A stretch of 64,000 nt of DNA from Escherichia coli (GCA_005400705.1 GCA_005400705.1_4079.1), one strand, 5' to 3'. Shown: positions 166 to 16,101, counted from the stretch's first letter. Numbers and translations are program-made. Notes: generated by a model from the sequence alone, not told the origin.

Positions 166-197
166 AGAGAACGGAATTTTCCGTTCTCTTCTTTTAT
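166..197 (+). terminator. intrinsic terminator (stem AGAGAACGG / CCGTTCTCT, T-tract)
   Basis: Perfect 9-bp inverted repeat with 6-nt loop followed by TCTTTTAT, 12 nt after the stop codon at 152-154. Confidence 0.7.
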
Positions 198-202
198 AAG
201 TG

Positions 203-230
203 GGGACAACTTATAAAAATATGATATAAT
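203..230 (+). promoter_or_regulatory. sigma70-type early promoter (GGGACA-N16-TGaTATAAT)
   Basis: -35-like GGGACA 203-208, 16-nt spacer, extended -10 TGaTATAAT 222-230; same architecture recurs at 21207, 44179 and 49898. Confidence 0.55.
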
Positions 231-264
231 AGTTAATGTACCAATATACATGGAGAGTATTAAA

Positions 265-510: not shown

Positions 511-512
511 TT

Positions 513-1169
513 ATGGCAGCTATTCGTCATGTTGGTGTAATGCGTAATACAGGTTCTCGTGTTTTTGTTGTTTGGCGTTCACTACCAGATGATCCTGAAC
601 ACTGCCTTATCGTTTATCGTGATTCACTACCAGAAGCATATGTTCACGCAGTAACTGATATTGTTATGGGTCATGGTCAATCTAATATTGATTTGTGGGA
701 AGTAATGCATAAAATTGGTTATCTCGATGGACGCAAAATGCTAGATGTTCTACACAACATGCAGCATCTACGTCGCGTTCGTACTTGTGACATTGATATG
801 CACACTGGTGGTAATAATAAAATTTCTCTTGATGTTCTAAACAAAGCATTAGATGAAAATCAAGCGAAAGTACAAGAAGATGGTAAAGTAAAAGACTTTA
901 ACCCATTCAATCCACAAGAAGCAGACACTAAAGTAGAAGAAGCTACTATTGTAGAAAAACTTCTCTCTGATGCACAAAAATATGAACAACTGGCTAAAGA
1001 ACATTATGAACGTGCATACAATTTAGAGCCAAGCTTGCGTCCGCAAACACAAGTTGTTGAACAACCGAAAGATAGTAAAACAATTTATCTAGAAATTCCA
1101 GAAGGTATTTCACAGACTAAAGCTATTGAGAAAGTAAAACAACTATTTGCAGAACGTAAAGCAAAATAA
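513..1169 (+). CDS. hypothetical protein
   Basis: 218-aa ORF with AAGGAGA RBS upstream of ATG 513; tightly packed in the same operon; no family recognised. Confidence 0.6.
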   Translation: MAAIRHVGVMRNTGSRVFVVWRSLPDDPEHCLIVYRDSLPEAYVHAVTDIVMGHGQSNIDLWEVMHKIGYLDGRKMLDVLHNMQHLRRVRTCDIDMHTGGNNKISLDVLNKALDENQAKVQEDGKVKDFNPFNPQEADTKVEEATIVEKLLSDAQKYEQLAKEHYERAYNLEPSLRPQTQVVEQPKDSKTIYLEIPEGISQTKAIEKVKQLFAERKAK

Positions 1170-1172
1170 AAT

Positions 1173-1766
1173 ATGAAAAAGAATGAATTAGATGAAGCAA
1201 TTAAAGGTTTATCTAATGTATGTTTTAGTGGCGGGGCAGCAGGTGCTGACCGCCTTTTTTCTATCTATGCAAAAAATAATGGATTTGAAGTTATTAATTT
1301 TTCATTCAAAGGTCATGAGCATAGTGTAGATGAAAGTACTATATTAGAAATACCATCCAATATTCTATCTGATATTTCTATATTAAATCAACTAAACATT
1401 GCATGTTACTCGTTGCAGCGAAAAGTACCAAAGCCTGGTTCTTATGTTTACAACTTACTTGCAAGGAATAGTTATCAGATACTTAATACAGAAAGAATAT
1501 ATTGTATTGCAAATATCACATCACCAACTAAGGTAAGTGGTGGTACTGCATGGGCAGTACAGATGTATATGGATTCAGTTGAAAATCCTGAAATTTATTG
1601 TTATGATATGAATTCACGTTCAGTATTTTATTTCGATACAGTACTGAAAGAGTTCACACAAACATTCGTCGTTCCAGCACCACATGGTAACTGGACTGGT
1701 ATTGGTTCACGCAATGCCACCGAAAAACATATGGAACATTTTATTACATTTTTCAAGGAAGAATAA
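1173..1766 (+). CDS. Rossmann-like SLOG/DprA-like protein (putative nucleotide-binding or nucleotide-processing)
   Basis: 197-aa ORF with N-terminal glycine-rich loop FSGGAAGADRLF and later VSGGTAWAV, reminiscent of DprA/LOG/YpsA (SLOG) signatures; stop overlaps the td start (TAATG). Confidence 0.4.
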   Translation: MKKNELDEAIKGLSNVCFSGGAAGADRLFSIYAKNNGFEVINFSFKGHEHSVDESTILEIPSNILSDISILNQLNIACYSLQRKVPKPGSYVYNLLARNSYQILNTERIYCIANITSPTKVSGGTAWAVQMYMDSVENPEIYCYDMNSRSVFYFDTVLKEFTQTFVVPAPHGNWTGIGSRNATEKHMEHFITFFKEE

Positions 1767-2695
1767 TGAAACAACTACAAGAACTATATCAAAAAATTCT
1801 AGATGAAGGCGTAGAAAGCGTTGACCGTACTGGTGTTGGAACAATCAAACTTATCGGTCAACAAATGCGTTTTGACCTTAAAGATGGTTTCCCAGCAGTG
1901 ACGACAAAACGTCTAGCTTGGAAAGCAATGACTTCAGAATTACTATGGTTTATTGAAGGTTCCCATGATGAGCGTCGCCTTTGTGAAATTTTGCATGGAA
2001 CTCGTGATACAGAAAAGAAAACTATTTGGACAGATAATTACCTAAATCAAGGCGTTGCTCTTGGTTATACTGATGGTGAGTTAGGTCCAGTGTATGGTAA
2101 GCAATGGCGTGAATGGGAAGATTATAAATTTAGTTCCAGTACTGAAGAAATTCAAGAATTAAAAGATAAAGGATACAAAGTTATCGATTATACTGGATCG
2201 CATGGTGTTGTTATGAAACGTACAACTGACCAATTACAGGAACTAATCAAAGGTATAAAGTCCGATCCATATGGTCGTCGCCATATTCTAAGTGCATGGA
2301 ACGTTGGTGAGCTTGATGATATGACGTTACCACCTTGTCATAGCTTTGTACAATTTTGTGTAGTACAAGGGAAACTAAGCTGCATTCTACATCAAAGATC
2401 CGCTGATCTATTTTTGGGAGTTCCATTTAATATCAGTAGTTATTCACTACTAACTCATATGATTGCACAAATTACTGGTTTAGATGTTGGTGAATTTATT
2501 TGGAATGGTGGTGATTGTCACATTTATAAAAACCACGTTGAACAAGTAAAAGAACAACTACAGCGAAAACCTCGTGAATTACCTGAATTGTGGCTTGATC
2601 CTACAATTACTAATATTGAAGATTTCACTATGGATTCTTTTAAATTAGTGAATTACAACCCAATGCCAACAATTAAAGCACCTATGGCTGTATAA
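1766..2695 (+). CDS. td: thymidylate synthase
   Basis: 309-aa product with canonical ThyA motifs including catalytic LPPCH (TLPPCHSFVQF) and a T4 Td-like N-terminus; uninterrupted reading frame. Confidence 0.95.
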   Translation: MKQLQELYQKILDEGVESVDRTGVGTIKLIGQQMRFDLKDGFPAVTTKRLAWKAMTSELLWFIEGSHDERRLCEILHGTRDTEKKTIWTDNYLNQGVALGYTDGELGPVYGKQWREWEDYKFSSSTEEIQELKDKGYKVIDYTGSHGVVMKRTTDQLQELIKGIKSDPYGRRHILSAWNVGELDDMTLPPCHSFVQFCVVQGKLSCILHQRSADLFLGVPFNISSYSLLTHMIAQITGLDVGEFIWNGGDCHIYKNHVEQVKEQLQRKPRELPELWLDPTITNIEDFTMDSFKLVNYNPMPTIKAPMAV

Positions 2696-2698
2696 ACG

Positions 2699-2730
2699 AA
2701 AAGGGAGAACTGATGTTCTCCCTTTTTTAT
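2699..2730. terminator. bidirectional intrinsic terminator between convergent td and fibre gene
   Basis: AAGGGAGAAC / GTTCTCCCTT inverted repeat with 4-nt loop, A-tract before and T-tract after. Confidence 0.75.
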
Positions 2731-4694
2731 TATCTAATTGTTACCAATGTTCTTCCGTCGAAACGTACATCAGGAGTTGAAGGTATACTAAACACTACGT
2801 TAGTGCCGTTAAACGTAACGCTATCGACCTCAACACGAGTATAGACACCAGGACTAACCTGTTCCTGTATCTCTGCTGTGACGATGTTTGAGGCTGTTAC
2901 AGTAAGGGTGTAGTAGTTACCACTTAATACCCAAGATGAAATTGTAAAAGCATCGGTTCTCACTGAACCTGAACCAATTGGAACCCATTGACCTTGAACT
3001 TTTTGCATTGAAGTACGCTCGGTATTGGAGTATGCAATCATACCATCAACGCCAACAGAGTTATCAATAGTAGCTAGTACTGGTAATTGGATACCATATC
3101 TATTAAAACGTGTTCTTATAGTTCCATTATCATAGATACTTACATCAGCATAATTACCCATTGATAGTTTTAAATCAGAACTAACTAATTGGATTGTACT
3201 TTGATTAGTAGTACTTTCTAATGTAATTATACCATTAGCTAATAGATTTATATTTTTAAATTTATTAGTTGTTCCATTGAAATTAGTGTTTGCTGTAAAC
3301 GTACTAACTCCATTAACTGTAATTGTATCAGATGCAGCATCGCCTAATGTAGTATTACCTTGAATGTTCAAATTACCACTAGCAGTGATATTACTAGCTG
3401 ATGTATCACCAGTCAATGTACTTGTACCATCAACCACAATATTACCATGAAACGCACTTTCACCATTTTTAAATTCAACTTGTACTTTATTCATTGAACT
3501 AAATGAAATAATATTACTACTAGCACTTAGTCCAACATTAGTATTGGTTGCATTATCAAATCTTAGTACTGGGGTTGATGCTGGGGTTGAAGTTGTTTGG
3601 TATAATGTTAATGTTGAATTATTAATTCTAATACGTTCAGTTCCAGCAGTACTGAAACCAATTGCATCATCTGCTGGATGAAACATACCAGTATTAGCGT
3701 CTGACCATTTTGCAGGATCATTACCTGGGTTATTGGTTGGATCAAATGGATTGTTATTAAATGTCAATGCTGGTGCTGCTGCACTACCATAGACCACACC
3801 AAAACGCCCTGAGCCGCTTGTTCCATCATTATACATGGAATCACCAGTTCTACGTAAACATTCAATCACAACGTTATCTATGGATGTTTGTACGGTTCCT
3901 GCGTTTGTTCTAAATTGACGATGGTTTGCAATCATTACTGTATTGTCATATAATACAGAAGCAGCAGAAATGCTTGTTCTTGACTGGCGTAGACGTATGT
4001 TTTTATCTTCAGTTATAATGATCCAATCACCATCTGATAGTGCGGTTTGGTTCATTGGAACGCCTGAAGCAAATGGTTTGGTTAAGTCAGCATCTGTTGC
4101 TAAATTTTTAAGACCATCATGACCAGTACTAGGAATAGATGCAGTAATAATTCTTGCAAAAGCGTATGTTACAAGTTTAGCACCAGATATATTTGGATTG
4201 GAGTCAACATAATATAAAATTTCAATCCAATTACCTTGACCAGTTGGGTTCGTAGGTGTAAATGTAACCGGACTTGTTTGTGGGTTATTTGCTTCAAAGT
4301 GTGCTTGTGCTGCATCCATAATACCACGAACAACATAATAATCACCATTTAGTGATGCTGCTGGTGCTGGTAGTGGTGTTTGTGCTAAAGGTGGATCAAT
4401 ATCATCTGGGATAGGATTGTATGTACCAACAAACTGTAAACCACTAGTTACTGAATCTGGTAATTGGGAAGTAAGAAGTTTACCATTTGCATCTAAGTTT
4501 GCAAAGCGGCGATATGCCATAGTACCATCTTCAAAATCCAGAACACCTTCAAATGATTTCCATTCCTTATTGTATCTAATCATCCCTGATCTTATTACAT
4601 CAGCGGTTTCTTTTGATGGTGCTTTCGGTAACTCTAAAAAAGATTTACTATCAATAATTACACCACCATCACCTCTAATTCGATTTATACTCAT
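2730..4694 (-). CDS. tail fibre / tailspike-like protein
   Basis: 654-aa ORF; C-terminal half is Ser/Thr/Asn/Gly-rich beta-strand repeat sequence typical of phage fibres; GAGG RBS; part of a multi-fibre cluster. Confidence 0.6.
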   Translation of the reverse strand: MSINRIRGDGGVIIDSKSFLELPKAPSKETADVIRSGMIRYNKEWKSFEGVLDFEDGTMAYRRFANLDANGKLLTSQLPDSVTSGLQFVGTYNPIPDDIDPPLAQTPLPAPAASLNGDYYVVRGIMDAAQAHFEANNPQTSPVTFTPTNPTGQGNWIEILYYVDSNPNISGAKLVTYAFARIITASIPSTGHDGLKNLATDADLTKPFASGVPMNQTALSDGDWIIITEDKNIRLRQSRTSISAASVLYDNTVMIANHRQFRTNAGTVQTSIDNVVIECLRRTGDSMYNDGTSGSGRFGVVYGSAAAPALTFNNNPFDPTNNPGNDPAKWSDANTGMFHPADDAIGFSTAGTERIRINNSTLTLYQTTSTPASTPVLRFDNATNTNVGLSASSNIISFSSMNKVQVEFKNGESAFHGNIVVDGTSTLTGDTSASNITASGNLNIQGNTTLGDAASDTITVNGVSTFTANTNFNGTTNKFKNINLLANGIITLESTTNQSTIQLVSSDLKLSMGNYADVSIYDNGTIRTRFNRYGIQLPVLATIDNSVGVDGMIAYSNTERTSMQKVQGQWVPIGSGSVRTDAFTISSWVLSGNYYTLTVTASNIVTAEIQEQVSPGVYTRVEVDSVTFNGTNVVFSIPSTPDVRFDGRTLVTIR

Positions 4695-4714
4695 TTAAAT
4701 ATTTCCTCAGAATA

Positions 4715-4722
4715 GATTTATA
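4715..4722 (-). promoter_or_regulatory. T4-type late promoter-like element (TATAAATC)
   Basis: Reverse complement of 4715-4722 is TATAAATC, followed by CTATTC, 20 nt upstream of the fibre gene ATG. Confidence 0.4.
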
Positions 4723-4741
4723 TGATGTATTTATTTTAGTT

Positions 4742-4772
4742 AAAAGAAAAGGCCAAGCATAGGCTTGACCTT
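4742..4772 (-). terminator. intrinsic terminator after the 259-aa gene
   Basis: On the minus strand a 10-bp stem AAGGUCAAGC / GCUUGGCCUU (one G-U pair) is followed by UUUCUUUU, directly 3' of the stop at 4779. Confidence 0.6.
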
Positions 4773-4778
4773 AAAAAA

Positions 4779-5558
4779 TTAACGTATACGTTCAGGAATA
4801 TCAACACCTTCATATACCCAAGTTGCAGCTTGTTGTGCCTTATAAATTGCATCAGGATCTAAATCATCAACTGCATCAATTGCTGCACACTGATTGTCAC
4901 ATTCTGTAAACAATTGCTCAATCATAGCAAAGGCTCCAGTGTATAGTTGTGTCATTTCAGTAGCAGATAATTTTACAATTGCGTCATCAAGAAAAATAGA
5001 AACACTTTCAGAACCTGAAGTGACTTGTGTATAGTAATTAAGAAGCATTTGACGACCAGACATATCAGTACTGTAACGATGACCATTGAACATATAACCA
5101 GAATTCATACGATTTGTACGTTCTGATATAGTTCTTGCTTTTAAATCAGCTTTAACATCTGCTATTGGCATATCAATATAATGATATGTTTTAAGAACAG
5201 TTAGTGCTTTATATTCTTCGGTAGCGTCTTCTAAAAATTCAACAATAGGTTGATTTTCATCTTTTAATTTAATAAACTCCAACGGTTGTTCAATAGCATT
5301 AACATTTCCAACATTTTTATACACTAACCACCAAAAACCTTCTTCTTTTCTAACAGCATCATTAGGTTCTACTGGGGAACCATCTTTACTTGAAATACCA
5401 TAAAGAGTTCTAATATCACTATAAAGATAACGATAGGTTTGTGGATCTTCTGGTGTTGCACCAGGACGTTCTTTAAGTCCTTTTACACCAATTGGATTGG
5501 AAATAATGTTTCCCAATTCATAATTTTCTTTTGAATTTCCTTTCACATATGTGAACAT
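4779..5558 (-). CDS. hypothetical protein between two fibre genes
   Basis: 259-aa ORF with GAGGTAG RBS; no family recognised. Confidence 0.55.
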   Translation of the reverse strand: MFTYVKGNSKENYELGNIISNPIGVKGLKERPGATPEDPQTYRYLYSDIRTLYGISSKDGSPVEPNDAVRKEEGFWWLVYKNVGNVNAIEQPLEFIKLKDENQPIVEFLEDATEEYKALTVLKTYHYIDMPIADVKADLKARTISERTNRMNSGYMFNGHRYSTDMSGRQMLLNYYTQVTSGSESVSIFLDDAIVKLSATEMTQLYTGAFAMIEQLFTECDNQCAAIDAVDDLDPDAIYKAQQAATWVYEGVDIPERIR

Positions 5559-5581
5559 ATAACTACCTCACTTGTTATGAT

Positions 5582-5606
5582 GGTGTCACCCAAAATGAGT
5601 GACACC
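5582..5606 (-). promoter_or_regulatory. perfect 8-bp inverted repeat (GGTGTCAC N9 GTGACACC) in an intergenic leader
   Basis: Lies between the stop of the giant fibre gene (5623) and the RBS/start of the 259-aa gene (5558); no adjacent U-tract, so not a canonical terminator. Confidence 0.4.
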
Positions 5607-5622
5607 TTTATTATTATAATTA

Positions 5623-8600
5623 TTAAGCAGTACGTTGTGCAATAAACATATCTGTTACTGGACTCACACCGTCATAAATGACTTGGTAGATAGTTACAGA
5701 GTTTGCAGTTTTGTTCAGTGTGCCATCAACAACCGCATAAGTACCATCAGTAGTAAAGTTTCTATTACCTGTTGCATCTTGTTTCACATAAATGTATACT
5801 GAAGATGCTTTACCACCACCGATTAGACCAGTGATTGGTGCTAGAGTGGTATCTTGATCTAGAGTGATAAAGTATACGTTGCTAGTACCGTCTGGGGTCC
5901 AAGTACCAGTTGGTGCGATAACAGAAGAAGTTACTTGATTAGGAATAACATCATATTTTTTAGTAGTTACTGTTGTTGTAGTTAGGTCAGCATTAGTAGT
6001 TGTCAATTGACCAGTTACAGTTACATCTTTATCAAATACTGCATTTTCTTTGAAAGAAGATGTTGCATTGACAGTTAATGTATCAGCAGCAGCGTCACCT
6101 AAAACAACACTACCATTTGCAGTCATTAAACCAGTAACAGTTAAAGTACCACCGATTGTTGCTGCTCCAGTAACAGATGCACTAGCAAGTGTTGCTGCAC
6201 CAGAAGTAGTAATGGTAGTTACTGAAGTTGCTGCTAGGGTTGCAGTACCTGTTGCAGAAATATCACCACCAACAGTTAGGTTACCAGAAGTAATTCCAAC
6301 GGTTCCAGTAATGTTAGCACCACTTGACATCGTTACTGCACCACCAAATGAACCAGTAGTAGTTACTTCAAGGGTGTTCCCTTTTAGTAGACCAGTTGCA
6401 GTAATACTTGTACCTGCGGTAATACTAGTACCAGCAGCAACACTGTTGGTTGCAGTTAATGATTTAACAGCCACGTCAGAGTTTGCTTGGTTTAGTGTTG
6501 CGTTTAGTAGACCAGTTACTGTAAAGTTACCGTTGTTAACTACGTTACCATTGATTGTTAAGTTGTTGTTTTGTGAACCAACATCACCAATAGTTGCTGA
6601 TTTGGAAATCAACTCTGCACCAGAAGTAATGTTACCCGCTGCACTAATAGTGTCAGCCGCAACAACTGCATAAGGTTCAATTGTTTGACCACTAACGTCA
6701 ATATCAGCGTTGATACCACCATCTACACGCAAGGAGCCTGCAATGTAAGTATTAGGGAAAATCTGAACTGTCTCTGGTTGATCACCAATTTTAGTACCGA
6801 TAATAACATCAGAACCAGTTTTAACTGCACCAGAGGTTGTTAGTGAACCTAAAGTTGTAGCACCAGTTACACCTAATGTTCCACCAATTGTTGCGTTATT
6901 GGTAACTGCTAATGCAGCACCTTCACCATTAAGAGCGATTGATGGAGCAGATACTGCACCAGTTACGCCTAATGTGCCACCAATTGTTGCGTTGCCATCT
7001 GAATGTAGAGTTGTAGCTACAGAAAGACTGTTAGCAACTACATCAGTACTAGCTAAATCCAATGCACCTGGGGTTAATGTACCAGTAATGTTAACATTAT
7101 TACCAAAGGTTGCTGCACCAGTCACATCTAGTGTAGTACTAAATGTACCAGAGGTTGCAGAGATTGCACCTGAATCTAGTGATCCAACAGTTGCTTTCCC
7201 AGTTACACCTAAAGTTCCACCAACAGTTCCATTTGTGGTTACATCCAATGTACCAGTACTTAGTTCTTGTGCGGTTACCTTACCGGATGCAGTAACAGTT
7301 GAAGTGGAAACGCCACCAGTTAGAGTACTAGCACCAGTAACACTTAATGTGGTTGCAGCAGTTACGCTATTTACGCTAAGATCAGCACCGGATAAGTCCA
7401 AACCACCTTCAGGAACAAATACACCCTTAACAGTTAGTTTTTGTACTGTACTATCACCTGTTACATCCAAGGTAGAAGCAGTTAAACCACCATTCATACT
7501 TGCTGCACCAGTAACACCTAGTGTAGTGGTTACAGTAGCACTATTAAGTGTTGAACTACCAGAAATATTAGCACTAGGAGCAGTAATAGTTCCAGAATCA
7601 ACTTGTATACCACCTGCAACAACCTGAATTCCACCAGCATTAACTGTTAGTTTACCAGCAGTATTCAATGTATTTGAAACTGTTGTTGCACCAGTTAAAG
7701 TTGTAGTACCAGTTACACCTAAGTTACCAGAAATAGATGGACTACCTGTAATATTACCAGTAGTTAGTATCAAATCAGTACCTACGGTAGTGGAGCCAGT
7801 ACTTTCTAGTGTCACACCAACGATGTTTGCAGAACTTAGGTTAATAGTACCATCAACAGTTAAGTTACCTTGAACGGTTGCATCACCTAGAGAAGTTAAT
7901 GTCTTCACAGACACATCAGTTGTGCTAAGATCAATAACACCCGCAGTTAGTGTTCCAGATACTGCTAAATTACCAGTAATCGCGGTATTTTTAGTAATGG
8001 ATACATTTTCTGCCGCTGAAGTAATAGAACCAACAGTAAGTACACCACCAACAGTTGCGTTATTAGTTACATTTAGAGCAGTTCCAACACCAGATAGTGT
8101 TGCTGACCCACCAGTAATTGCACCTGAGATTGAAGCTGTTGCTGCTGAAACATCACCAGAAACTACTGCATTTGTTGCATTTAGAGCAGACACTGTAACT
8201 TCAGTACTTTGAACTTTAGGTAGAACGTTGATACCTTCTGCACTACTAACTGTAATAATACCAGTACTTGTTAGAGATTTAACAGATACATCAGCACCAC
8301 TTAAATCAACTGTACCAGAAACAACAAGATCTCCACCAATATTTGCTCCAGCGGTAGTAGTAATGGATTTTGCACTTACATCAGTTGTGCTCAAATCAAT
8401 TGCACCTGGTGTTACTGTACCAGAAACTGTTAGGTCACCAGTAATAGATGTATTATTGGAAATAGATACACCATCAACGTTACTAATTGTTGGGGTTTCT
8501 ACAGAAACTGCTTTAACTTTACCTGAAGAAGTTACGTCAGCTACGGTAGATGCACCAGTAACATTCAAATTAGTAATATTTGCAGTTGTTGAACCAAGGG

Positions 8601-11148
8601 TTGCAATAGTTGCATCAGTACTTTGAAGTTTAGGTAGAACACTACTAATTGTGGATTCATTACTAACAATTGCACCAGTACTAGTTAAAGATTTGACAGT
8701 AACATCAGCCGTAGTAAGATCTACTGTACCATTAACAGTTAGGTTACCACCAATAGTTGCACCAGCAGTAGTAGTAATGGATTTAGCATTAACATCAGTT
8801 GTTGCTAGATCGATAGAGCCTGGAATAACTGCACCAGTAACAGTTAGGTCACCAGTTACATTTGTATTATTGGAAATAGTGACACCACTTGCATTTGAAA
8901 TGGTTGGGGTAACCAACGATGCAGTTGTAGTTTCACCAGTTACAGTTAAAGTTGACCCAACTAGAACAGATGAGCTTGAGTAAATTGTACCCAAATTAGC
9001 AGATCCGGTAACAGTTATATCATCAGCATTAACAGTAGTTGCCGTTATGGTAGTACTATTAAGTACTGGAAGTACGTTAGCATTAACAAGATCATTACTT
9101 TTAACAATACCAGAAGTAGTTAATGATTTAACATTAAGGTCGGCTGCTGATAAATCAAAAGAGCCTTGAACTACTAAATCACCACCAATAGTTGCACCAG
9201 CAGTAGTAGTGATTGATTTAGCATTAATATCGGTAGTGCTCAAGTCTAGAGAACCAACAGTTAAGCTACCAGTAATATCAACATTTTCTGTAAAGTTAGT
9301 ATTACCACTAATAGTTGGTGCAGTCAGAGTTGTTGCACTAATATTAGTACCGTTAATTGTTTGCCCACTTACAGTTCCACTCGCAGTGATAGTAGGGGCC
9401 GTTACTTCAGTAGATGCACTAATTGTTGGTGCAGATACAGAAGTTGTACCAGTAATAGAACCAGAACTTACTGAACCAGCGGATAATGCACCAGAAAGAG
9501 TTGCAGTTGTACCAGCAATATCACCAGTAACAGTTAGTTTAGCACCCACGGTAGTGTTACCAGTACTTTCAAGTGTTGCACCTTTAATATTTGCTGCCGC
9601 GACAACAGAATTAGGTGTTAGATCCTGCCCACTAACATCAACAGTTAGTCCAGTTACTGTTCCAGTAAATTCAACATCATTAAGAATTGCTTTACCACCA
9701 ACTTGTAGGAATGGTGTACCTGGAGCTTGTGTTTCGTTACCAGTAATAGTTAGGTAATCTAGTTTGTTTAGACCGTTACCAGTAATACCATAAGTGGAAA
9801 GAGAAGCGTTACCGAAAGTTGCTGTTTTAAGAACGTTCAATGTAGAAGGAGAAACGACTTCTGATTGAACTTCGTTAGGTAGAATAACTGTTGGGCGTTG
9901 ACCAGGTGCAGTATATCCAAAACCTAGTTTCACTGCCGCATCTTGACTATTTTGGCCTAAGCTGATAGATTTAAAGGATGCAGTACTGTTATAACCAGTA
10001 ATATTAGAACCAAGAGTAACACCACCAACTAATGAAGTTGCACCAGTAACGTTCAATGATACTGCATTAATATCGTCTAGTTGGAATGATCCACCAAGAA
10101 GACCAGAAACATTAATGTTATTAAAATTAGCAGTTCCAGTACTTTCAATATTTGGAATAGTTGCAGTTCCGGTTACTTCAAAGTCAGCAACTTTGGTTTT
10201 GCCTTTTTGAACTTCTAATAGTGGTGTGTCTGGAGATTGTGTGTTGTTACCAGAAACTGTTAGATAATCCAATTTGTTTAGACCATTACCAGTAATACCA
10301 TAAGAAGATAATGACGCATTACCAAAAGAAGCAGAGGTCAATACTGTCAAGTTTGCAGGTGACATTAGCTCGGACTGAATTTCGTTTTGTAGAATAACAG
10401 TTGGGCGTTTACCAGGAGCAGTGTAAGGGAAGCTTAATCTGAAGGTTTGTGATTCAGAGTTAGAACCAATACGAATGTCTTTAAAAGTAGCAGTACTGTT
10501 AATACCAGTTACGTTAGCACCGAAAGTCACTGCACCTTGTTGGTTAGATGCACCAGAAACGTTCAATGTTACTGCATTTAAGTCAGAAAGATTAAACTGA
10601 CCACCTAATGTACCACTAATGGTTACATCTTTAAAAGTAGCAGTTCCAGTACTACTAATATCGGTTGTACTTACATTAGTAATTTCTGCGGAATTAGCAG
10701 TAATTTTATCAAATGCAGAAGTAGTACCAACATCAGCAGTAATATTACCTTTAAATGCTGTTGTTTCAGCAACTTCTAAGTTTTTAACTTTAGTTGCTTG
10801 TAGAGTGGTTGTACCAGCAGTTTGTGTGAAATCAGAACCAACTGATACAGTACCGTTAAAGGTAGCGTTTGAATTAATTGTTGCTGTATCAGACCCGACA
10901 ACTGCACTACCGATTGTAGTATTACCCTCAACACCAAGACCACCAGAAAGTGTTGCTTTGCCACCAACATCTAAAGTAGATGTAATGTTGGCAGTTGATG
11001 ATTCAATGGCAGTAAAAGTTGCATTTGCAAAAGTTACAGTACCATTTACAGTTAGGTTATTATTGAAAACAGCATTTCCTTTGACTAAAAGATCCTTACC
11101 AACCGTACCAGCACCAGTAATATCTAAGTCAGTTTTTATTGAGTACAT
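5623..11148 (-). CDS. giant fibrous tail protein (long tail fibre / adhesin-like, 1841 aa)
   Basis: Very long ORF rich in Thr/Ser/Gly/Val/Asn with internal tandem protein repeats; GGAGGG RBS upstream of ATG 11148. Confidence 0.7.
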   Translation of the reverse strand: MYSIKTDLDITGAGTVGKDLLVKGNAVFNNNLTVNGTVTFANATFTAIESSTANITSTLDVGGKATLSGGLGVEGNTTIGSAVVGSDTATINSNATFNGTVSVGSDFTQTAGTTTLQATKVKNLEVAETTAFKGNITADVGTTSAFDKITANSAEITNVSTTDISSTGTATFKDVTISGTLGGQFNLSDLNAVTLNVSGASNQQGAVTFGANVTGINSTATFKDIRIGSNSESQTFRLSFPYTAPGKRPTVILQNEIQSELMSPANLTVLTSASFGNASLSSYGITGNGLNKLDYLTVSGNNTQSPDTPLLEVQKGKTKVADFEVTGTATIPNIESTGTANFNNINVSGLLGGSFQLDDINAVSLNVTGATSLVGGVTLGSNITGYNSTASFKSISLGQNSQDAAVKLGFGYTAPGQRPTVILPNEVQSEVVSPSTLNVLKTATFGNASLSTYGITGNGLNKLDYLTITGNETQAPGTPFLQVGGKAILNDVEFTGTVTGLTVDVSGQDLTPNSVVAAANIKGATLESTGNTTVGAKLTVTGDIAGTTATLSGALSAGSVSSGSITGTTSVSAPTISASTEVTAPTITASGTVSGQTINGTNISATTLTAPTISGNTNFTENVDITGSLTVGSLDLSTTDINAKSITTTAGATIGGDLVVQGSFDLSAADLNVKSLTTSGIVKSNDLVNANVLPVLNSTTITATTVNADDITVTGSANLGTIYSSSSVLVGSTLTVTGETTTASLVTPTISNASGVTISNNTNVTGDLTVTGAVIPGSIDLATTDVNAKSITTTAGATIGGNLTVNGTVDLTTADVTVKSLTSTGAIVSNESTISSVLPKLQSTDATIATLGSTTANITNLNVTGASTVADVTSSGKVKAVSVETPTISNVDGVSISNNTSITGDLTVSGTVTPGAIDLSTTDVSAKSITTTAGANIGGDLVVSGTVDLSGADVSVKSLTSTGIITVSSAEGINVLPKVQSTEVTVSALNATNAVVSGDVSAATASISGAITGGSATLSGVGTALNVTNNATVGGVLTVGSITSAAENVSITKNTAITGNLAVSGTLTAGVIDLSTTDVSVKTLTSLGDATVQGNLTVDGTINLSSANIVGVTLESTGSTTVGTDLILTTGNITGSPSISGNLGVTGTTTLTGATTVSNTLNTAGKLTVNAGGIQVVAGGIQVDSGTITAPSANISGSSTLNSATVTTTLGVTGAASMNGGLTASTLDVTGDSTVQKLTVKGVFVPEGGLDLSGADLSVNSVTAATTLSVTGASTLTGGVSTSTVTASGKVTAQELSTGTLDVTTNGTVGGTLGVTGKATVGSLDSGAISATSGTFSTTLDVTGAATFGNNVNITGTLTPGALDLASTDVVANSLSVATTLHSDGNATIGGTLGVTGAVSAPSIALNGEGAALAVTNNATIGGTLGVTGATTLGSLTTSGAVKTGSDVIIGTKIGDQPETVQIFPNTYIAGSLRVDGGINADIDVSGQTIEPYAVVAADTISAAGNITSGAELISKSATIGDVGSQNNNLTINGNVVNNGNFTVTGLLNATLNQANSDVAVKSLTATNSVAAGTSITAGTSITATGLLKGNTLEVTTTGSFGGAVTMSSGANITGTVGITSGNLTVGGDISATGTATLAATSVTTITTSGAATLASASVTGAATIGGTLTVTGLMTANGSVVLGDAAADTLTVNATSSFKENAVFDKDVTVTGQLTTTNADLTTTTVTTKKYDVIPNQVTSSVIAPTGTWTPDGTSNVYFITLDQDTTLAPITGLIGGGKASSVYIYVKQDATGNRNFTTDGTYAVVDGTLNKTANSVTIYQVIYDGVSPVTDMFIAQRTA
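7900..9300. repeat. intragenic tandem repeats (about 4 copies, ~420 bp / ~140 aa each)
   Basis: Near-identical DNA blocks around 8340-8410, 8760-8825 and 9190-9260 (GCACCAGC(G/A)GTAGTAGT(A/G)AT(G/T)GATTT...), with a more diverged copy near 7930; encode the repeated unit IDLSTTDVSAKSITTTAGA-IGGDLVV..VDLS.ADV.VKSLTSTG; boundaries approximate. Confidence 0.65.
9636..10656. repeat. intragenic tandem duplication (2 copies, ~510 bp / ~170 aa each)
   Basis: DNA near 10250-10310 repeats near 9730-9790; protein segments from about residue 165 to 335 and 335 to 505 are near-identical; boundaries approximate. Confidence 0.6.
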
Positions 11149-11244
11149 TTATACCCTCCATTATAACCTTGTTAATATGTATATATTTAGTTTTATTATG
11201 CTGTTATCCAACAATTAATACATTATTTGACAAAAGCAAATATA

Positions 11245-11285
11245 ATAAAAAACCAGACTTATTTAGAACAAGTCTGGTTCTTTTT
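11245..11285 (-). terminator. intrinsic terminator after the 298-aa fibre gene
   Basis: 9-bp stem ACCAGACTT / AAGTCTGGT flanked by an A-tract and a T-tract, immediately 3' of the stop at 11288. Confidence 0.65.
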
Positions 11286-11287
11286 TA

Positions 11288-12184
11288 TTACTTACCAGAG
11301 ATGACAATCTTACCACTGAAAGAAATATCAGAAGTGAAGATTACATCACCAGTACTACTAATTTGTGTATCAGTCACTACCAATTCAAATGGAGATGACG
11401 CAACACTCCCAGGTGTTTTATTTGCATAAATTGAAATATACAAATTATCTGGTGTTTGATTGTGTTCAGATGCAGGAATAGTGATTGTAAAATCACCAGC
11501 ACTAGAAACCCAATCTGCTTGGTTTACCAATTTACTATAAGGTACTGTCATTGTTGTTGCTCCTATAATGTTTACTTTAACACTTGCATAATCTGTGATT
11601 TGACCAATCACATCAATTGTTATATCCCCAATACCACTAACTGTTACTGTGGTTTGGAATACTGATTCCAATGCAACATTACCTGGGTCACCTTGTAGTT
11701 GGATCATAATATCAGAACCTCTACCATGAACTGATTCTGGTAGTGTGTAAGTATAATGATCAGTAGTATCTGGTACTAATGTAAATGCAGAAACAGGAAC
11801 TATTTCAGTAGTTACATATGAGCTATCAGTTCCAGGTGAGCTACCTTTAAATGGTTTCCAAATACCAAGATCTTTAATATAAATTTGAAGAACATTAGTA
11901 CTATCAACCAAAAAGTAAACGTCACCATCTAGACCAATAGAATCGGATGGTGCTGTTGTTCCACGTAAGATACCAGAACTACCACCACCACTGTGTGCGT
12001 TTAAATATCCCAATGTAACCAAGTGTGTGTTTGCAGTTGGTTCACCTGCTGAAATTGGAAGAAGTTGTGTTCCTGAGTAGTTTTGAATTTGCACAACACT
12101 ACCATTTGTGGTAATCTGTGCACCATTCTTCCCAAGAATGAAGGACTTCTTCATGGTTCCTTCTAAATTAGAAAAAACTGCCAT
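11288..12184 (-). CDS. tail fibre / receptor-binding protein with shared N-terminal anchor
   Basis: 298 aa; N-terminus MAVFSNLEGTMKKSFILGKNG is near-identical to the N-terminus of the adjacent 713-aa tailspike. Confidence 0.6.
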   Translation of the reverse strand: MAVFSNLEGTMKKSFILGKNGAQITTNGSVVQIQNYSGTQLLPISAGEPTANTHLVTLGYLNAHSGGGSSGILRGTTAPSDSIGLDGDVYFLVDSTNVLQIYIKDLGIWKPFKGSSPGTDSSYVTTEIVPVSAFTLVPDTTDHYTYTLPESVHGRGSDIMIQLQGDPGNVALESVFQTTVTVSGIGDITIDVIGQITDYASVKVNIIGATTMTVPYSKLVNQADWVSSAGDFTITIPASEHNQTPDNLYISIYANKTPGSVASSPFELVVTDTQISSTGDVIFTSDISFSGKIVISGK

Positions 12185-12200
12185 TTTAATATAATCTCCT

Positions 12201-14342
12201 TTATGGTAGGGTTATGTAAGTTACGGGTTGGGCGGCTTTTAATGCTGCACCAGCGGCAGTTGCTGTTATGATAGGATCTGCAATATCAATTCTATATACG
12301 TTGTTTACAACATACACTGCACGAGTTATATACGTTCTCAAATCACCACCATTTTCACCAGCACCAGATATAATAATCTCAGTACCAGCAGCTTTTGCAT
12401 ATTGGTTTTCACCCCATGACACACCCAATGCTTCTATATATGTTTGTCCTACTACGGTTTGTCTAATAGTGTCGTATTTTCCGAAAAAAGAACCACCAAC
12501 GGTCACAATATATTTTCCACCAGATTGCTTATGTATAATAGTACCTTCTGGGAAATAACGACCACCCGGAAAAGTGTCGTAGGGAATATAATATTGTTCA
12601 ACTACTGGTATCAGTACTGGGCCACGGTGACCTGTACCATCGATTGCAGTTGTAACTTTAAAGTTATTAGATGATTGGTCTATTCTGTCTACATACATTT
12701 TAGAAAAACTATATTTTGAAACATTACAATCATCTTGAACAACACAGTTAGTCCAATTAGTATAAGTATATTTAGAGCGAGTATAGATACCACCACCTTC
12801 GCCTTCTGTAGAGAGATGTTGACCAATTACGTCTAATTCTTTAGTTCTAATATCACTAAATTTAGATGATGATGGTAAACCACGCCAAAGAATTTTAGAA
12901 CAGGTGATATTGCTCAATTCTGTATTATTTAACCAATTGTCAGAACCGGAAGTATAAACAAGTATAGAAGACTCTGGAATATAGAGATTAGAAATTTTAA
13001 AGTTTCTAGGTGGTCCAGCAAAACGACCAGAAGTTACACCCCAGTTTATTGAAACCATTCTATTTGTGATAGAAGGATCATTAAGCAAATGACCAGTCAA
13101 CCCATCAATAATGAATTCTTTAGAACCATAAGTTATAACACCAGCAGTGGTTAATCCAGTACCGACAGAAACTAAAGATGATGGATAAACTTCATTATTA
13201 AGTATTTTAAAGTCCATGCCTAATTCAACGTGGATACATTGTCTAACATTATATAGTCTGTTATTTTTAATAACAAAGTTTCTGACATATTGTGTATCTG
13301 GTGCATCTAAACCATAAGGACCAGAACCAGCAACACCAATACCAATACCCCAGTTTGAAAGTGGGATTGGAGCGTTAGAACCATCAACGTTTTCAATTAC
13401 GTTTCCTTCAATCACAAAACCATCAGGATAATGTGAGTTAATTACGTTTAGTTCAATTGCATCACCATAGATATCATGTATGTGGTTATATGAATATCTA
13501 CCAACCTTCATTTTCTCACCAGTACCTTGTTGAAGAACACCATACTTACATTGGGTCATTTCATTAAAGCAAAAATCTATTGTTCCTGGTTGTGTCATAC
13601 CTTGCATTAAAAATGCAGCAGTACTTGTGATGTTTATAAATTTATTAAAATAAAACTTACCATCTCCACCGAAGAATTTTAAATAACATCCAGTAAGTGT
13701 TGCAAATTGTATTTGGGAATTAATAACGGATACCATAGTACCACCGTTACCAGTAATAGTTCCCCCAAACCAAGTTACATCTTCCAGGTATATTGCAGTT
13801 TTGATACGGTAATTACCACCAGCCTGAATTTGGATTTTATTTTCTTTAGCATAAGCAGCACATAAATTTACAGCAGCAGTGTCATCAGTTTCGCCATCAC
13901 CTTTAGCACCAAATTCTTCTGGTGTTATATAAAACTGGGCCTGTTGAACTGTACCTCCAGTAATAAGTCCGATGAAATCGCCACCATTTTTACTGGATAG
14001 AACTTTTTTATTAATGTATAATGATTTTACCCATGTACCATTGCTTTTTGCAAAAATATCAACAATACCATCTTCATCAATTTGAAAATACGTATTATTG
14101 TTCTTTCCTATATCATCGGTAGGTGGTACAACACCAAATAATGCATTAGGGTTATCTTCAAGATATTTTACGTTAACTGCTGAATTAGGATCAGATGAAG
14201 TTCCTACCTTCAGTGGTAGGAACTGTTCTCCTAGATAATCTTTTATAGAAACTGAATCATTGATAAAATTTATTGAAGCACCTTTTTTCCCCAATATGAA
14301 TTTGGGCTGCATAGTTCCTTCAAAATTAGAAAATACTGCCAT
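12201..14342 (-). CDS. tailspike with right-handed beta-helix (pectate-lyase-like putative depolymerase)
   Basis: 713 aa; shared N-terminal anchor MAVFSNFEGTMQPKFILGKKG; GDGETDDTAAVNLCAAYAKENKIQIQAGGNYRI resembles the Pectate_lyase_3 N-cap; followed by parallel beta-helix-like repeats. Confidence 0.65.
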   Translation of the reverse strand: MAVFSNFEGTMQPKFILGKKGASINFINDSVSIKDYLGEQFLPLKVGTSSDPNSAVNVKYLEDNPNALFGVVPPTDDIGKNNNTYFQIDEDGIVDIFAKSNGTWVKSLYINKKVLSSKNGGDFIGLITGGTVQQAQFYITPEEFGAKGDGETDDTAAVNLCAAYAKENKIQIQAGGNYRIKTAIYLEDVTWFGGTITGNGGTMVSVINSQIQFATLTGCYLKFFGGDGKFYFNKFINITSTAAFLMQGMTQPGTIDFCFNEMTQCKYGVLQQGTGEKMKVGRYSYNHIHDIYGDAIELNVINSHYPDGFVIEGNVIENVDGSNAPIPLSNWGIGIGVAGSGPYGLDAPDTQYVRNFVIKNNRLYNVRQCIHVELGMDFKILNNEVYPSSLVSVGTGLTTAGVITYGSKEFIIDGLTGHLLNDPSITNRMVSINWGVTSGRFAGPPRNFKISNLYIPESSILVYTSGSDNWLNNTELSNITCSKILWRGLPSSSKFSDIRTKELDVIGQHLSTEGEGGGIYTRSKYTYTNWTNCVVQDDCNVSKYSFSKMYVDRIDQSSNNFKVTTAIDGTGHRGPVLIPVVEQYYIPYDTFPGGRYFPEGTIIHKQSGGKYIVTVGGSFFGKYDTIRQTVVGQTYIEALGVSWGENQYAKAAGTEIIISGAGENGGDLRTYITRAVYVVNNVYRIDIADPIITATAAGAALKAAQPVTYITLP

Positions 14343-14356
14343 TATGACATCCTCCC

Positions 14357-15520
14357 TTAAATATTATCTTGAATCGGTTGGATAGGAGCTTGCCATGAAA
14401 GAGTACAAATAATTTCCATTTTTCCATAAGGACTGTTGTTAACAGAATCGTTGAATACACATGAAATAATTTCATCAACATCGGATGCTGCATGATTAGT
14501 TTCATTAACAATAAAACGCATCTGACGATTGATATCAAAGTATGAAGTTGGTGCAATTACAGTTCCACCAATATCTTCTTGTGCTTCACCACCAAAACGT
14601 ACAAACATATCAGTTACAGGAAGAGAATAAGGTTGTATAACGTTTACATCAATATTAGAAACTACATATCCAGCAGGACACGTACCAATAACTAATAGTG
14701 CGTTAGTCCATGAGCTATCTATTGTATTTCTAATAGAAATTGTATCTTTACCTGGTGCACCTGGTTCGCCTTGTATACCTTGAATACCTTGCTGACCTTC
14801 TTTACCACGGAATAGAATACCATCACTCCACTCTTTTGAAGGAGGGGTTGTTGTAGTTACTTCATCAACATAATATAGTTTTCCATCAGTGTTGTTATAA
14901 AAACAATAATCAACTGGAAGATTTTCAATACTTGGAAATTGATCACCACTGCTATCAATATGGAAACGACCACGCGGACCTTGTTCACCACGGAAAGGGA
15001 TACCATCACTCCAAGTGGCAGTTACACTTTGATAGAAATAAAGCTTACCATCTTGTGTATTATAAAATGTATAGTTATTAAAAAGACCAGTTGTTGGGAA
15101 AGAAGTCCCAGCACTATCAATGTGGAACGGCTTACCCGCTTCACCAGTATCACCTTTACCAAACTCAACACTAATCCATGTACTTGTCGGATCTTGTGCA
15201 TCGTTTGATTTAAAGTATAGAGTACTGGTATTGTTAGCCAAGCTTAAGTAGCACCACCCAAGTGGTTCACCAACTTTAAATTGTTCGGAAGGAATTTCAA
15301 AACCAATCTCATTAGGATAAAAGTTTTTACCATTCTCGCCATTCTGTCCTACAACAAGACCTAAATCTTGAATTGTGTTATCTGCATAGGTTACAATTAA
15401 ATGCCCAGCACCATTAATAACTAGACTTTTGATGCCGGAGTTATTACATGAACCACTGGACCCATTGTTAAATGAAATTGTCATAATATTTCCCTTGTAT
15501 GAGTTAATGTCATATACCAA
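14357..15520 (-). CDS. tail fibre protein with collagen-like Gly-X-Y tract and internal repeats
   Basis: 387 aa; GKEGQQGIQGIQGEPGAPGKD is an uninterrupted Gly-X-Y run; repeated units GE.G.PFHIDS.G..FP ... DGKLY. Confidence 0.6.
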   Translation of the reverse strand: MVYDINSYKGNIMTISFNNGSSGSCNNSGIKSLVINGAGHLIVTYADNTIQDLGLVVGQNGENGKNFYPNEIGFEIPSEQFKVGEPLGWCYLSLANNTSTLYFKSNDAQDPTSTWISVEFGKGDTGEAGKPFHIDSAGTSFPTTGLFNNYTFYNTQDGKLYFYQSVTATWSDGIPFRGEQGPRGRFHIDSSGDQFPSIENLPVDYCFYNNTDGKLYYVDEVTTTTPPSKEWSDGILFRGKEGQQGIQGIQGEPGAPGKDTISIRNTIDSSWTNALLVIGTCPAGYVVSNIDVNVIQPYSLPVTDMFVRFGGEAQEDIGGTVIAPTSYFDINRQMRFIVNETNHAASDVDEIISCVFNDSVNNSPYGKMEIICTLSWQAPIQPIQDNI

Positions 15521-15594
15521 TATTTATCAGTACAAAATACATTTCGTTATCATTAATAAATAAATGAAAGTTCACTACTAAAAGGGCTTAAACA

Positions 15595-16092
15595 ATGGCA
15601 TTAAGATCAAAAGACTTTCTCTTCAGAAGAAAAACAAAAGATGGTTCATGGCAAGATTTTCCTGAATCTGATAGCTGGTATCCAGCTAACTTGGATTATC
15701 ACTGGAATGAACAAACGTTACCACTAGCAAGTGGTGGCTACTATGGCTGTACTACAGGTTTACATACGATTTCATTTACACTACGTAATTTTATTGGTAG
15801 AATTTATGTGTTAGCTACATTAGCTAGTAATCCTACTGATGATGATTGGTTTCCAATTAAATTCACTGAAAGTTGTAATTATTATCTTGAATTTACTGAT
15901 ATGGTTATTTTAAATCCAAATGGTGGAGATTTAATTAGACAACAAGGAACTACCGGAACATTTGCTGAAACAGTAACTGGTAATTTTACTTACCTTAAAG
16001 TTGGTATAGACCGTGATTATATTAGTAAGTATCCATCAGATGTCCAAAAAAGTTTAGCTGGGAAGTTAGAACAAATTTTAATTAACTACTAA
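15595..16092 (+). CDS. hypothetical protein (probable virion component)
   Basis: 165-aa ORF diverging from the fibre cluster; no family recognised. Confidence 0.5.
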   Translation: MALRSKDFLFRRKTKDGSWQDFPESDSWYPANLDYHWNEQTLPLASGGYYGCTTGLHTISFTLRNFIGRIYVLATLASNPTDDDWFPIKFTESCNYYLEFTDMVILNPNGGDLIRQQGTTGTFAETVTGNFTYLKVGIDRDYISKYPSDVQKSLAGKLEQILINY

Positions 16093-16101
16093 GGATTAGA
16101 A

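What the first reader, a model, noticed from the sequence alone, without database searches (positions are those of the whole stretch)
7900..10656. Long near-identical tandem repeats inside the 1841-aa fibre gene
About four ~420-bp repeats and two ~510-bp repeats are near-identical at DNA level. They are substrates for recombination that could change fibre length or create assembly errors. They also generate the long spurious antisense ORFs on the plus strand (6050-9757) in the ORF track.
Basis: seen in the sequence. Interest (0 to 1): 0.4.

Follow-up and report, generated by a model that had tools for sequence, protein, structure and literature searches.

The report
Diverged repeat modules in jumbo-phage fibre
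The 1841-residue tail-fibre gene of this 121Q-type jumbo coliphage is built from old, diverged tandem modules, not near-identical repeats, and relatives gained or lost whole modules by rare unequal recombination, as is usual for phage fibres.

Summary
There are two 510-nt (170-aa) "A" units at window 9619-10638. There are four 414-465-nt "B" units at 7564-9321. They are not near-identical: DNA identity is 59-77%, protein identity 34-58%, and the longest exact repeat is 30 nt. Tandem Repeats Finder reports none of them.

The gene (5623-11148, minus strand) matches phage 121Q gene 571 and phAPEC6 Gp256. Gp256 is a virion protein confirmed by mass spectrometry.

The recombination idea is supported, but only over evolutionary time. 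CRJP21 and JP4 carry a third A unit. Its 5' two-thirds is A2-type and its 3' third is A1-type, as unequal crossing-over predicts. The window's single 112-aa "C" unit looks like the deletion product of two copies still present in phage UB. Eleven other deposited genomes (12 records) have exactly the same 5526-nt gene, so copy number is stable.

The antisense ORFs are spurious, but the repeats do not cause them. Codon-shuffled genes give the same open frame. It exists because the protein is poor in Tyr, Gln and His.

Assembly risk is negligible. This is an ordinary modular fibre and of low interest.

The parts
5623..11148 (-). Tail-fibre gene, 1841 aa. Matches 121Q gene 571 and phAPEC6 Gp256.
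   Evidence: ORF. PHROG 4549 'tail fiber protein', E 7.6e-227. 98.9-99.2% DNA identity to SP27, 121Q and phAPEC6 genes. phAPEC6 Gp256 (180.38 kDa) was found in virions by MS with 15 unique peptides (PMC7247149).
10129..10638 (-). Repeat unit A1 (aa 171-340, 510 nt)
   Evidence: blastp A1/A2 E 2e-69, 58.7% aa identity. 59.4% DNA identity in register.
9619..10128 (-). Repeat unit A2 (aa 341-510, 510 nt)
10273..10329 (-). Most conserved segment of A1 (unit nt 310-366; encodes part of ...SSYGITGNGLNKLDYL...). It contains the 19-nt and 12-nt runs identical to A2 and abuts the crossover interval inferred in CRJP21.
   Evidence: Identical runs at unit nt 335-353 and 355-366. The CRJP21 hybrid unit switches between unit nt 310 and 324.
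9763..9819 (-). The same conserved segment in A2
8908..9321 (-). Repeat unit B1 (aa 610-747)
8494..8907 (-). Repeat unit B2 (aa 748-885)
   Evidence: B2/B3 are 66% identical over 109 aa, E 2e-43.
8029..8493 (-). Repeat unit B3 (aa 886-1040)
7564..8028 (-). Repeat unit B4 (aa 1041-1195). Only the first ~80 aa are still recognisable.
   Evidence: HMM match at aa 1044-1122, E 2.6e-18. blastp to B1-B3 E 5e-13 to 2e-19.
9181..9210 (-). Longest exact repeat in the gene (30 nt, encodes TTTAGATIGG). This is the B1 copy; its partner is at 8746-8775 in B2.
   Evidence: blastn 9181-9240 vs 8746-8806, 90% over 61 nt.
8746..8775 (-). Partner copy of the 30-nt exact repeat, in B2
6910..7245 (-). Single 112-aa C unit (aa 1302-1413). 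UB, CRJP21 and JP4 have two copies here. The window copy looks like 5' of the upstream copy joined to 3' of the downstream copy.
   Evidence: 112-aa gap in the window relative to UB and CRJP21. UB copies are 90.5% identical at the DNA level. Informative-site pattern 24/32 consistent, 53 of 5000 permutations as good.
7246..7563 (-). Degenerate C-like unit (aa 1196-1301) preceding the C unit
   Evidence: 112-aa register and shared LDLSGADLSVNSV motif. Weak HMM match at aa 1214-1287.
5635..6183 (-). C-terminal domain (aa 1656-1838) homologous to the C-terminus of the phiTE putative tail fibre protein. Probably the receptor-binding tip; not part of the repeats.
   Evidence: phmmer against PDB chain 9cuy_g, residues 611-792
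6050..11218 (+). Six spurious antisense ORFs, all in one plus-strand frame (6050-6673, 6899-7627, 8228-8626, 8651-8983, 9209-9757, 10619-11218)
   Evidence: The same frame is open in every orthologue, with different stop positions.

Best explanation
The region is the shaft-coding part of a virion tail-fibre gene of a 121Q-type (Asteriusvirus) jumbo coliphage. The shaft is built from tandem protein modules that arose by old in-frame duplications: two 170-aa A units, four 138-155-aa B units, and a 112-aa C unit with a degenerate neighbour. A 13-residue motif ([ILV]D[LV]S..D[LIV]..KS[LI]) punctuates the fibre.

The copies have diverged to 59-77% DNA identity. Orthologous units in different phages are more alike than paralogous units within one phage. 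So the modules are kept as distinct structural segments and are not homogenised.

By homology to the trimeric phiTE long tail fibre, each module probably contributes a stretch of an intertwined trimeric beta-structure. Module number would then set fibre length. This step is inferred.

Module number changes rarely, by unequal homologous recombination between misaligned units at their best-conserved stretches. This gives in-frame gain or loss of exactly one unit. It is shown by hybrid units in relatives, not observed in this genome itself.

The antisense ORFs are a by-product of amino-acid composition and codon use.
For: Gene identity and virion location; PMC7247149.

Repeats are real and significant.

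The duplication is old and there is no concerted evolution. Window A1 is 73% identical to BF17 A1 and 85% to ph0011 A1, but only 59% to window A2. The two-A-unit layout recurs in homologues only 31-40% identical to the query.

Unit-wise length variation: orthologues are 1827-2129 aa, with gaps of exactly 170 aa and 112 aa.

Unequal-crossover signature: in the CRJP21 middle A unit, 171 of 209 informative sites fit '5' A2-type / 3' A1-type'. The switch lies at unit nt 310-324, and 0 of 2000 permutations score as well. Its 5' part is 93.2% identical to window A2 and its 3' part 94.1% to window A1. The switch abuts the longest A1/A2 identical runs, 19 + 12 nt at unit nt 335-366. JP4, a separately deposited genome, has the same gene at 99.45% identity. 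The same polarity appears in the distant three-unit proteins P0011 and P0012 (0 and 3 of 2000 permutations).

Deletion signature: the window C unit fits the pattern 5' UB-C2 / 3' UB-C3.

Stability: 12 other records (11 genomes) have exactly 5526 nt.

Trimeric extended architecture: the only PDB relative by sequence is the phiTE tail fibre (E 2.9e-30). It is described as a trimer with a predicted long beta-helix, 512 A for 793 aa (PMC11972413). The AF2 monomer model of an A unit has pLDDT 71 but no intrachain secondary structure, as expected for a chain that pairs with its partner chains.

Antisense ORFs come from composition.
Against: No copy-number variation was seen for this genome itself; all recombination evidence is comparative.

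The CRJP21 hybrid unit is 6-7% diverged from the nearest A1 and A2 sequences available. The event is therefore not recent, or it involved a diverged co-infecting phage rather than sister genomes.

The C-unit deletion signature rests on 32 sites (permutation about 0.01) and is only suggestive.

The middle unit of the JNE01-type paralogue (P0002) shows no significant hybrid pattern (386 of 2000 permutations).

The fold of the modules is unresolved. The monomer models are poor or featureless and fold searches return only sequence relatives.

Which of the several fibre types seen on phAPEC6 virions this protein forms is not established.
Confidence: 0.85

Rival explanations
1. One reading: the copies are near-identical at the DNA level, so they recombine often, give copy-number heterogeneity within phage stocks, and are prone to misassembly.
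For: Periods and copy numbers were correctly seen. Relatives do differ by whole units.
Against: DNA identity is 59-77% and the longest exact repeat is 30 nt. TRF finds nothing. Eleven other deposited genomes (12 records) have exactly the same gene length. The units gained in relatives are themselves 6-10% diverged from their parent units, so the events are old.
Confidence: 0.04
2. The 'repeats' are not true duplications. They are chance resemblance between stretches of a low-complexity protein rich in Thr, Gly, Ser and Val.
For: The composition is extreme: T 18.7%, G 12.1%, S 10.9%, V 10.2%. Many short 40-50-nt motif families are scattered across the gene.
Against: Composition-preserving shuffles never exceed a 60-aa self-score of 78, against 249 observed. 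Pairwise E-values reach 2e-69 with composition-adjusted blastp. Register is maintained over 170 aa, including aromatic and proline positions.
Confidence: 0.01
3. Length differences among relatives come from swapping whole shaft segments with other phages (horizontal module exchange or illegitimate recombination), not from unequal crossing-over between the gene's own repeats.
For: The CRJP21 extra unit is 6-7% diverged from any A1 or A2 in the sampled genomes. Identity to the window varies block-wise along the gene in ph0011 and UE-S1, from 74% to 100%, which is typical of mosaic fibres. Some relatives carry two paralogous fibre genes side by side, offering further partners.
Against: Gaps are exactly one unit long (170 aa, 112 aa) and in register. 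The extra unit is a clean two-part hybrid of the two resident unit types, with the polarity unequal crossing-over predicts and a switch next to the best-conserved stretch. A diverged co-infecting relative as partner would still be homologous recombination between misaligned repeats.
Confidence: 0.1

Closest known systems
Long tail fibre of Pectobacterium phage phiTE (PDB 9CUY/9MJN chain g, 'putative tail fiber protein', 793 aa; UniProt K9L5R6)
   Same: It is the only PDB relative found by sequence (E 2.9e-30). It aligns to the A-unit region (query 381-607), to B-type motifs, and to the C-terminal domain (query 1656-1838). It is described as a trimer with a long predicted beta-helical shaft (PMC11972413). 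It is also recovered by Foldseek against BFVD.
   Different: phiTE has 793 aa, against 1841 aa here. Only its residues 14-171 were modelled experimentally, so the repeat modules have no solved structure. No match was found between the two N-termini. That chain g is the paper's 'LTF' is my inference from its length and sequence character.
121Q gp571, phAPEC6 Gp256 and other Asteriusvirus 'long tail fiber proximal subunit' proteins (PHROG 4549)
   Same: Same gene: 98.9-99.2% DNA identity, same length, same neighbours. Gp256 is a virion protein by MS.
   Different: None of substance. The papers I read on these phages (PMC7247149, PMC13070987, PMC12648861) do not describe the internal modules or their copy-number differences.
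Repeat-built shafts of other viral fibres: T4 gp34/gp37 repeated domains and the adenovirus fibre shaft, whose pseudo-repeat number sets its length (from my own knowledge, not tested here)
   Same: Serial repeats in a trimeric fibre, with length differences by whole repeats among relatives and recombination at conserved motifs.
   Different: No detectable sequence relationship: no Pfam or NCBIfam T4 fibre family is hit. The units here are much longer (112-170 aa) than adenovirus 15-residue repeats. The 'proximal subunit' label in GenBank is not backed by any family match found here.

Membership tests
PHROG 4549 (tail fiber protein) | Significant full-length match to the family profile | tested here: met
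   E 7.6e-227, 756 bits, 9 matched stretches
Pfam PF26209 (precomputed on 22 of 24 homologues) | Match to the PF26209 profile above its gathering score | not testable with these tools
   The accession is listed for the homologues, but the local Pfam copy does not report it, even for P0001.
T4 gp34-type 'long tail fiber proximal subunit' (GenBank label of orthologues) | Sequence or profile similarity to T4 gp34 family models | tested here: not met
   No Pfam or NCBIfam family other than a sub-threshold Bactofilin hit. The PDB sequence search returns only the phiTE fibre.
Bactofilin (PF04519) | Score at or above the gathering cut-off of 27.9 bits | tested here: not met
   19.5 bits, E 0.0012, no stretch passing on its own
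Near-identical tandem DNA repeat array (TRF-type, recombination-prone) | Head-to-tail copies at least ~85-90% identical at the DNA level | tested here: not met
   TRF finds only three 18-21-nt micro-arrays. Unit identities are 59-77% and the longest exact repeat is 30 nt.
Tandem protein-domain repeats produced by in-frame duplication | Adjacent units of equal length in one reading frame with significant pairwise similarity | tested here: met
   A1/A2 E 2e-69; B pairs E 5e-13 to 2e-43; offsets of 170, 138, 145 and 155 aa
Unequal-crossover copy-number variation | The extra unit in an expanded allele is a hybrid: 5' from the downstream unit type, 3' from the upstream unit type, with a single switch in a shared conserved stretch | tested here: met
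   CRJP21/JP4 middle unit: 171 of 209 sites fit, switch at nt 310-324, 0 of 2000 permutations. P0011 and P0012 show the same polarity. P0002 is not significant.
Trimeric intertwined fibre shaft | Homotrimer with interchain beta-structure | not testable with these tools
   Only monomer prediction is available. The A-unit model has pLDDT 71 with no DSSP secondary structure. Trimer status is inferred from the phiTE homologue.

The most novel reading that the evidence does not exclude
Module number could be a selected 'reach' setting rather than neutral variation. Gain or loss of A and C units (roughly 11 nm and 7 nm each, by proportion to the phiTE fibre) would adapt the fibre to hosts with different capsule or O-antigen thickness. 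The 32-nt island that stays nearly identical between A1 and A2, despite otherwise saturated divergence, could be kept because it allows this switching. The evidence does not exclude this. Expansions occurred in at least two unrelated lineages (three if the statistically unsupported P0002 case is counted), and the CRJP21 crossover maps next to that island. However, the island also encodes the most conserved peptide (GITGNGLNKLDYL), which explains its conservation more simply.
Probability: 0.1. Interest if true: 0.5.

Novelty: new member of a known kind. Interest (0 to 1): 0.2.

Why it matters
This is mainly an annotation and interpretation point. The fibre of 121Q-type jumbo phages can be described as a string of defined A, B and C modules. 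That description explains the 1827-2129-aa length range among relatives. It also offers natural in-frame junctions for engineering fibre length.

It settles that the plus-strand ORFs over this gene should not be annotated. The PBECO4 GenBank record does annotate three of them as hypothetical proteins. It also shows that the repeats do not threaten assembly.

None of this changes what is understood about phage fibres, where repeat-built shafts and recombination at conserved motifs are familiar.

Tried and rejected
- Tandem Repeats Finder at default settings found none of the long repeats. A self-blastp returned only the identity hit, so I used a diagonal BLOSUM scan instead.
- A search for a paralogue inside the window found none, by tblastn. 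The 3333-aa neighbour is unrelated.
- The AF2 monomer of A1+A2 with a 15-sequence alignment gave pLDDT 47 and was unusable.
- A single A unit with a 34-sequence alignment gave pLDDT 71 but no secondary structure. Foldseek against the PDB gave nothing. Foldseek against BFVD gave only sequence relatives. The fold of the modules therefore remains unknown; I did not spend the third fold search.
- NCBIfam gave no hits. The Pfam hit to Bactofilin is below the cut-off and was rejected.
- Third-codon-position bias cannot separate the sense frame from the open antisense frame, because the two share the wobble position. I relied instead on the uninterrupted 1841-codon frame, position 2 being more conserved than position 1 in the sense frame (95 vs 171 differences to ph0011), the MS evidence, and homology.
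- I first read the partial PBECO4 match as a swapped C-terminal module. It is partial only because that record is opened inside the gene.
- Literature searches for earlier descriptions of these repeats or of unequal crossing-over in fibres found nothing specific.

Full report
**What the locus is**

The window comes from a 121Q/SP27/phAPEC6-type jumbo coliphage (genus Asteriusvirus). The 5526-nt ORF at 5623-11148 on the minus strand is 99.2% identical to the SP27 gene and 98.9% identical to 121Q gene 571 and phAPEC6 gp256. The neighbouring genes are the same as in 121Q.

The protein matches PHROG 4549 'tail fiber protein' at E 7.6e-227. The phAPEC6 orthologue Gp256 (180.38 kDa) was detected in purified virions by mass spectrometry with 15 unique peptides (PMC7247149). 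That paper does not say which of the several fibre types on these virions Gp256 forms.

No Pfam or NCBIfam family is met; the only hit is a sub-threshold Bactofilin match. The GenBank label 'long tail fiber proximal subunit' is therefore not backed by any T4 gp34 family match here. Homologues in the large protein database carry Pfam PF26209, which the local Pfam copy does not report.

**Checking the observation**

| Series | Units | Residues | Window coordinates |
|---|---|---|---|
| A | 2 x 170 aa (510 nt) | 171-340, 341-510 | 10129-10638, 9619-10128 |
| B | 138, 138, 155, 155 aa | 610-747, 748-885, 886-1040, 1041-1195 | 8908-9321, 8494-8907, 8029-8493, 7564-8028 |

B4 is recognisable only over its first ~80 residues.

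The repeats are highly significant. blastp gives A1/A2 E = 2e-69 and B pairs E = 5e-13 to 2e-43. The best 60-residue off-diagonal score is 249, against a maximum of 78 in 20 composition-preserving shuffles.

'Near-identical at DNA level' is wrong:
- A1/A2 are 59.4% identical in register.
- The best local blastn segments are 75-77% identical.
- B pairs are 67-76% identical at the DNA level and 34-58% at the protein level.
- The longest exact direct repeat anywhere in the gene is 30 nt (9181-9210 and 8746-8775).
- Tandem Repeats Finder reports none of the arrays.

**Further structure of the fibre**

Downstream of the B units there is a 112-aa C unit (aa 1302-1413, window 6910-7245), preceded by a degenerate copy.

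A 13-residue motif, [ILV]D[LV]S..D[LIV]..KS[LI], occurs 12 times; the shuffled mean is 0.05. It appears twice per B unit, 30 residues apart, once at the end of A2, and once per C unit. Sequences resembling the motif are visible in the aligned phiTE fibre.

**Age of the duplications**

Orthologous units are more alike across phages than paralogous units within one phage. Window A1 is 85% identical to ph0011 A1 and 73% to BF17 A1, but only 59% to window A2. Homologues only 31-40% identical to the query already have the two-A-unit layout. By tblastn, the A module occurs in 59 phage records from the Rak2-like jumbo phages of Escherichia, Erwinia, Salmonella, Yersinia, Pectobacterium, Cronobacter, Serratia, Klebsiella and Xanthomonas.

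The duplications are therefore old, and the copies are not being homogenised.

**Does recombination between the repeats change fibre length?**

Comparative evidence says yes, but rarely. Orthologue lengths differ:

| Phage | Length (aa) |
|---|---|
| Window, 121Q, phAPEC6 | 1841 |
| ph0011 | 1834 |
| UE-S1 | 1827 |
| UB | 1959 |
| CRJP21, JP4 | 2129 |

In a protein alignment the large gaps are exactly one unit long: 170 aa in the A array and 112 aa at the C unit.

*Gain of an A unit.* CRJP21 has three A units. Its middle unit matches the downstream (A2-type) unit over the first ~310 nt and the upstream (A1-type) unit from nt 324 on. Of 209 informative sites, 171 fit a single switch, and 0 of 2000 permutations score as well. 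This is the product expected when A2 of one molecule pairs with A1 of another and a crossover resolves between them. The switch lies next to the only long identical stretches shared by A1 and A2, 19 + 12 nt at unit nt 335-366.

JP4 was deposited separately and carries the same gene at 99.45% identity. The hybrid unit matches no other unit better than 93-94%. Misassembly of a two-unit gene cannot explain it.

The distant three-unit proteins P0011 and P0012 show the same polarity (0 and 3 of 2000 permutations). The three-unit JNE01-type paralogue P0002 does not show it significantly.

*Loss of a C unit.* UB and CRJP21 have two C copies that are 90.5% identical to each other. At the 32 sites where those copies differ, the window's single copy follows the upstream copy in its 5' part and the downstream copy in its 3' part (24 of 32 sites; 53 of 5000 permutations as good). 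This suggests the 121Q lineage lost a unit by the reciprocal event. I rate this as suggestive only.

*Stability.* Against frequent change, 12 other records (11 genomes, since 121Q appears twice) have exactly 5526 nt.

**Antisense ORFs**

The six plus-strand ORFs all lie in one frame. Over the gene that frame has 31 stops, against 136 and 227 in the other two plus-strand frames. A stop in that frame requires a Tyr (TAY) or Gln/His (CAN) codon in the sense frame, preceded by a codon ending in a pyrimidine (T for Gln/His). The protein has only 1.0% Tyr, 2.1% Gln and 0.1% His.

Shuffling codon order destroys the repeats but keeps composition. It leaves 32.7 stops on average and a mean longest open stretch of 659 nt (maximum 1302). 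The real gene has 846 nt. The same frame is open in every orthologue, with different stop counts and different longest open stretches.

This frame shares its third codon position with the fibre frame, so wobble-position bias cannot separate the two frames. What supports the minus-strand frame is:
- the uninterrupted 1841 codons;
- stronger conservation of sense position 2 than position 1 (95 vs 171 differences to ph0011);
- the MS evidence;
- homology.

In the PBECO4 GenBank record, three 'hypothetical proteins' are annotated on the strand antisense to this fibre gene. That record is also opened inside the gene.

**Structure**

The only PDB relative by sequence is the phiTE 'putative tail fiber protein' (9CUY/9MJN chain g, E 2.9e-30). 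It aligns to the A-unit region and to the C-terminal domain. The phiTE paper describes its long tail fibre as a trimer. Only residues 14-171 were modelled; the rest is a predicted extended beta-helix, 512 A long for 793 residues (PMC11972413).

My AF2 monomer models were uninformative. A1+A2 gave pLDDT 47. A single A unit with 34 aligned units gave pLDDT 71 but no intrachain secondary structure. That result is consistent with a chain that only forms sheets with its partner chains, but it does not prove this. Fold searches returned nothing beyond sequence relatives.

That each module is a serial shaft segment, and that module number sets length (about 11 nm per A unit by proportion), is inference.

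**Verdict**

Repeat-mediated length change has happened in relatives. Near-identity, assembly risk and causation of the antisense ORFs are not supported.

This is an ordinary repeat-built phage fibre. The specific A/B/C module map and the hybrid-unit evidence appear not to be described in the papers I could read. The principle, however, is well known.

Noticed in passing
L009 (PBECO4, KC295538) 317-1363, 1679-1969, 4250-4993; equivalent to the window plus strand over 5623-11236: The PBECO4 GenBank record annotates three 'hypothetical proteins' (AGC35229-31) on the strand antisense to the fibre gene. The record is also opened inside the gene, so the real fibre CDS is missing there.
   Followed up: partly
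L006 (fEgEco12) 1-8849; L007 (BF17) 2501-10399; L011 (JNE01) 8491-18510: Some Asteriusvirus genomes carry two paralogous copies of this fibre gene in tandem. In JNE01 the first (1628 aa) has two A units and the second (2120 aa, identified with P0002 by its length and matching unit coordinates) has three.
   Followed up: partly
window 6702-9642 (minus strand), aa 503-1495 of the fibre: A 13-residue motif [ILV]D[LV]S..D[LIV]..KS[LI] occurs 12 times (shuffled expectation 0.05). It appears twice per B unit, 30 aa apart, and once per C unit. Sequences resembling it are also visible in the phiTE fibre alignment. It may mark a recurring structural joint.
   Followed up: partly
window 23599-33600 (minus strand): A 3333-aa ORF with no similarity to the fibre protein. 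Its size is close to the 381.9-kDa structural 'hypothetical protein' gp245 listed in the phAPEC6 virion proteome; I did not check that they correspond.
   Followed up: no
window 12201-14342 (minus strand): A 713-aa protein with a pectate-lyase-like domain that matches PHROG 6117 'colanic acid degradation'. It is probably a depolymerase tailspike and lies two genes upstream of the fibre gene.
   Followed up: no
window 4779-5558 (minus strand): A 259-aa DUF4376 protein lies immediately downstream of the fibre gene. It matches PHROG 17968 'virion structural protein' and, weakly, tail-fibre PHROGs. It could be a distal fibre part or an assembly factor.
   Followed up: no
window 5623-11148, plus-strand frame with start position mod 3 = 2: The open antisense frame shares its third codon position with the fibre's reading frame. 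Third-position substitution bias between orthologues therefore cannot show which strand is coding. This is a caveat for any automated test of coding potential here.
   Followed up: yes
alignment of window vs ph0011 and UE-S1, whole gene: Identity to the window varies block-wise along the fibre, from 74-76% in some 100-column blocks to 100% in others. This suggests mosaic exchange of fibre segments among Asteriusvirus phages, in addition to unit gain and loss.
   Followed up: no
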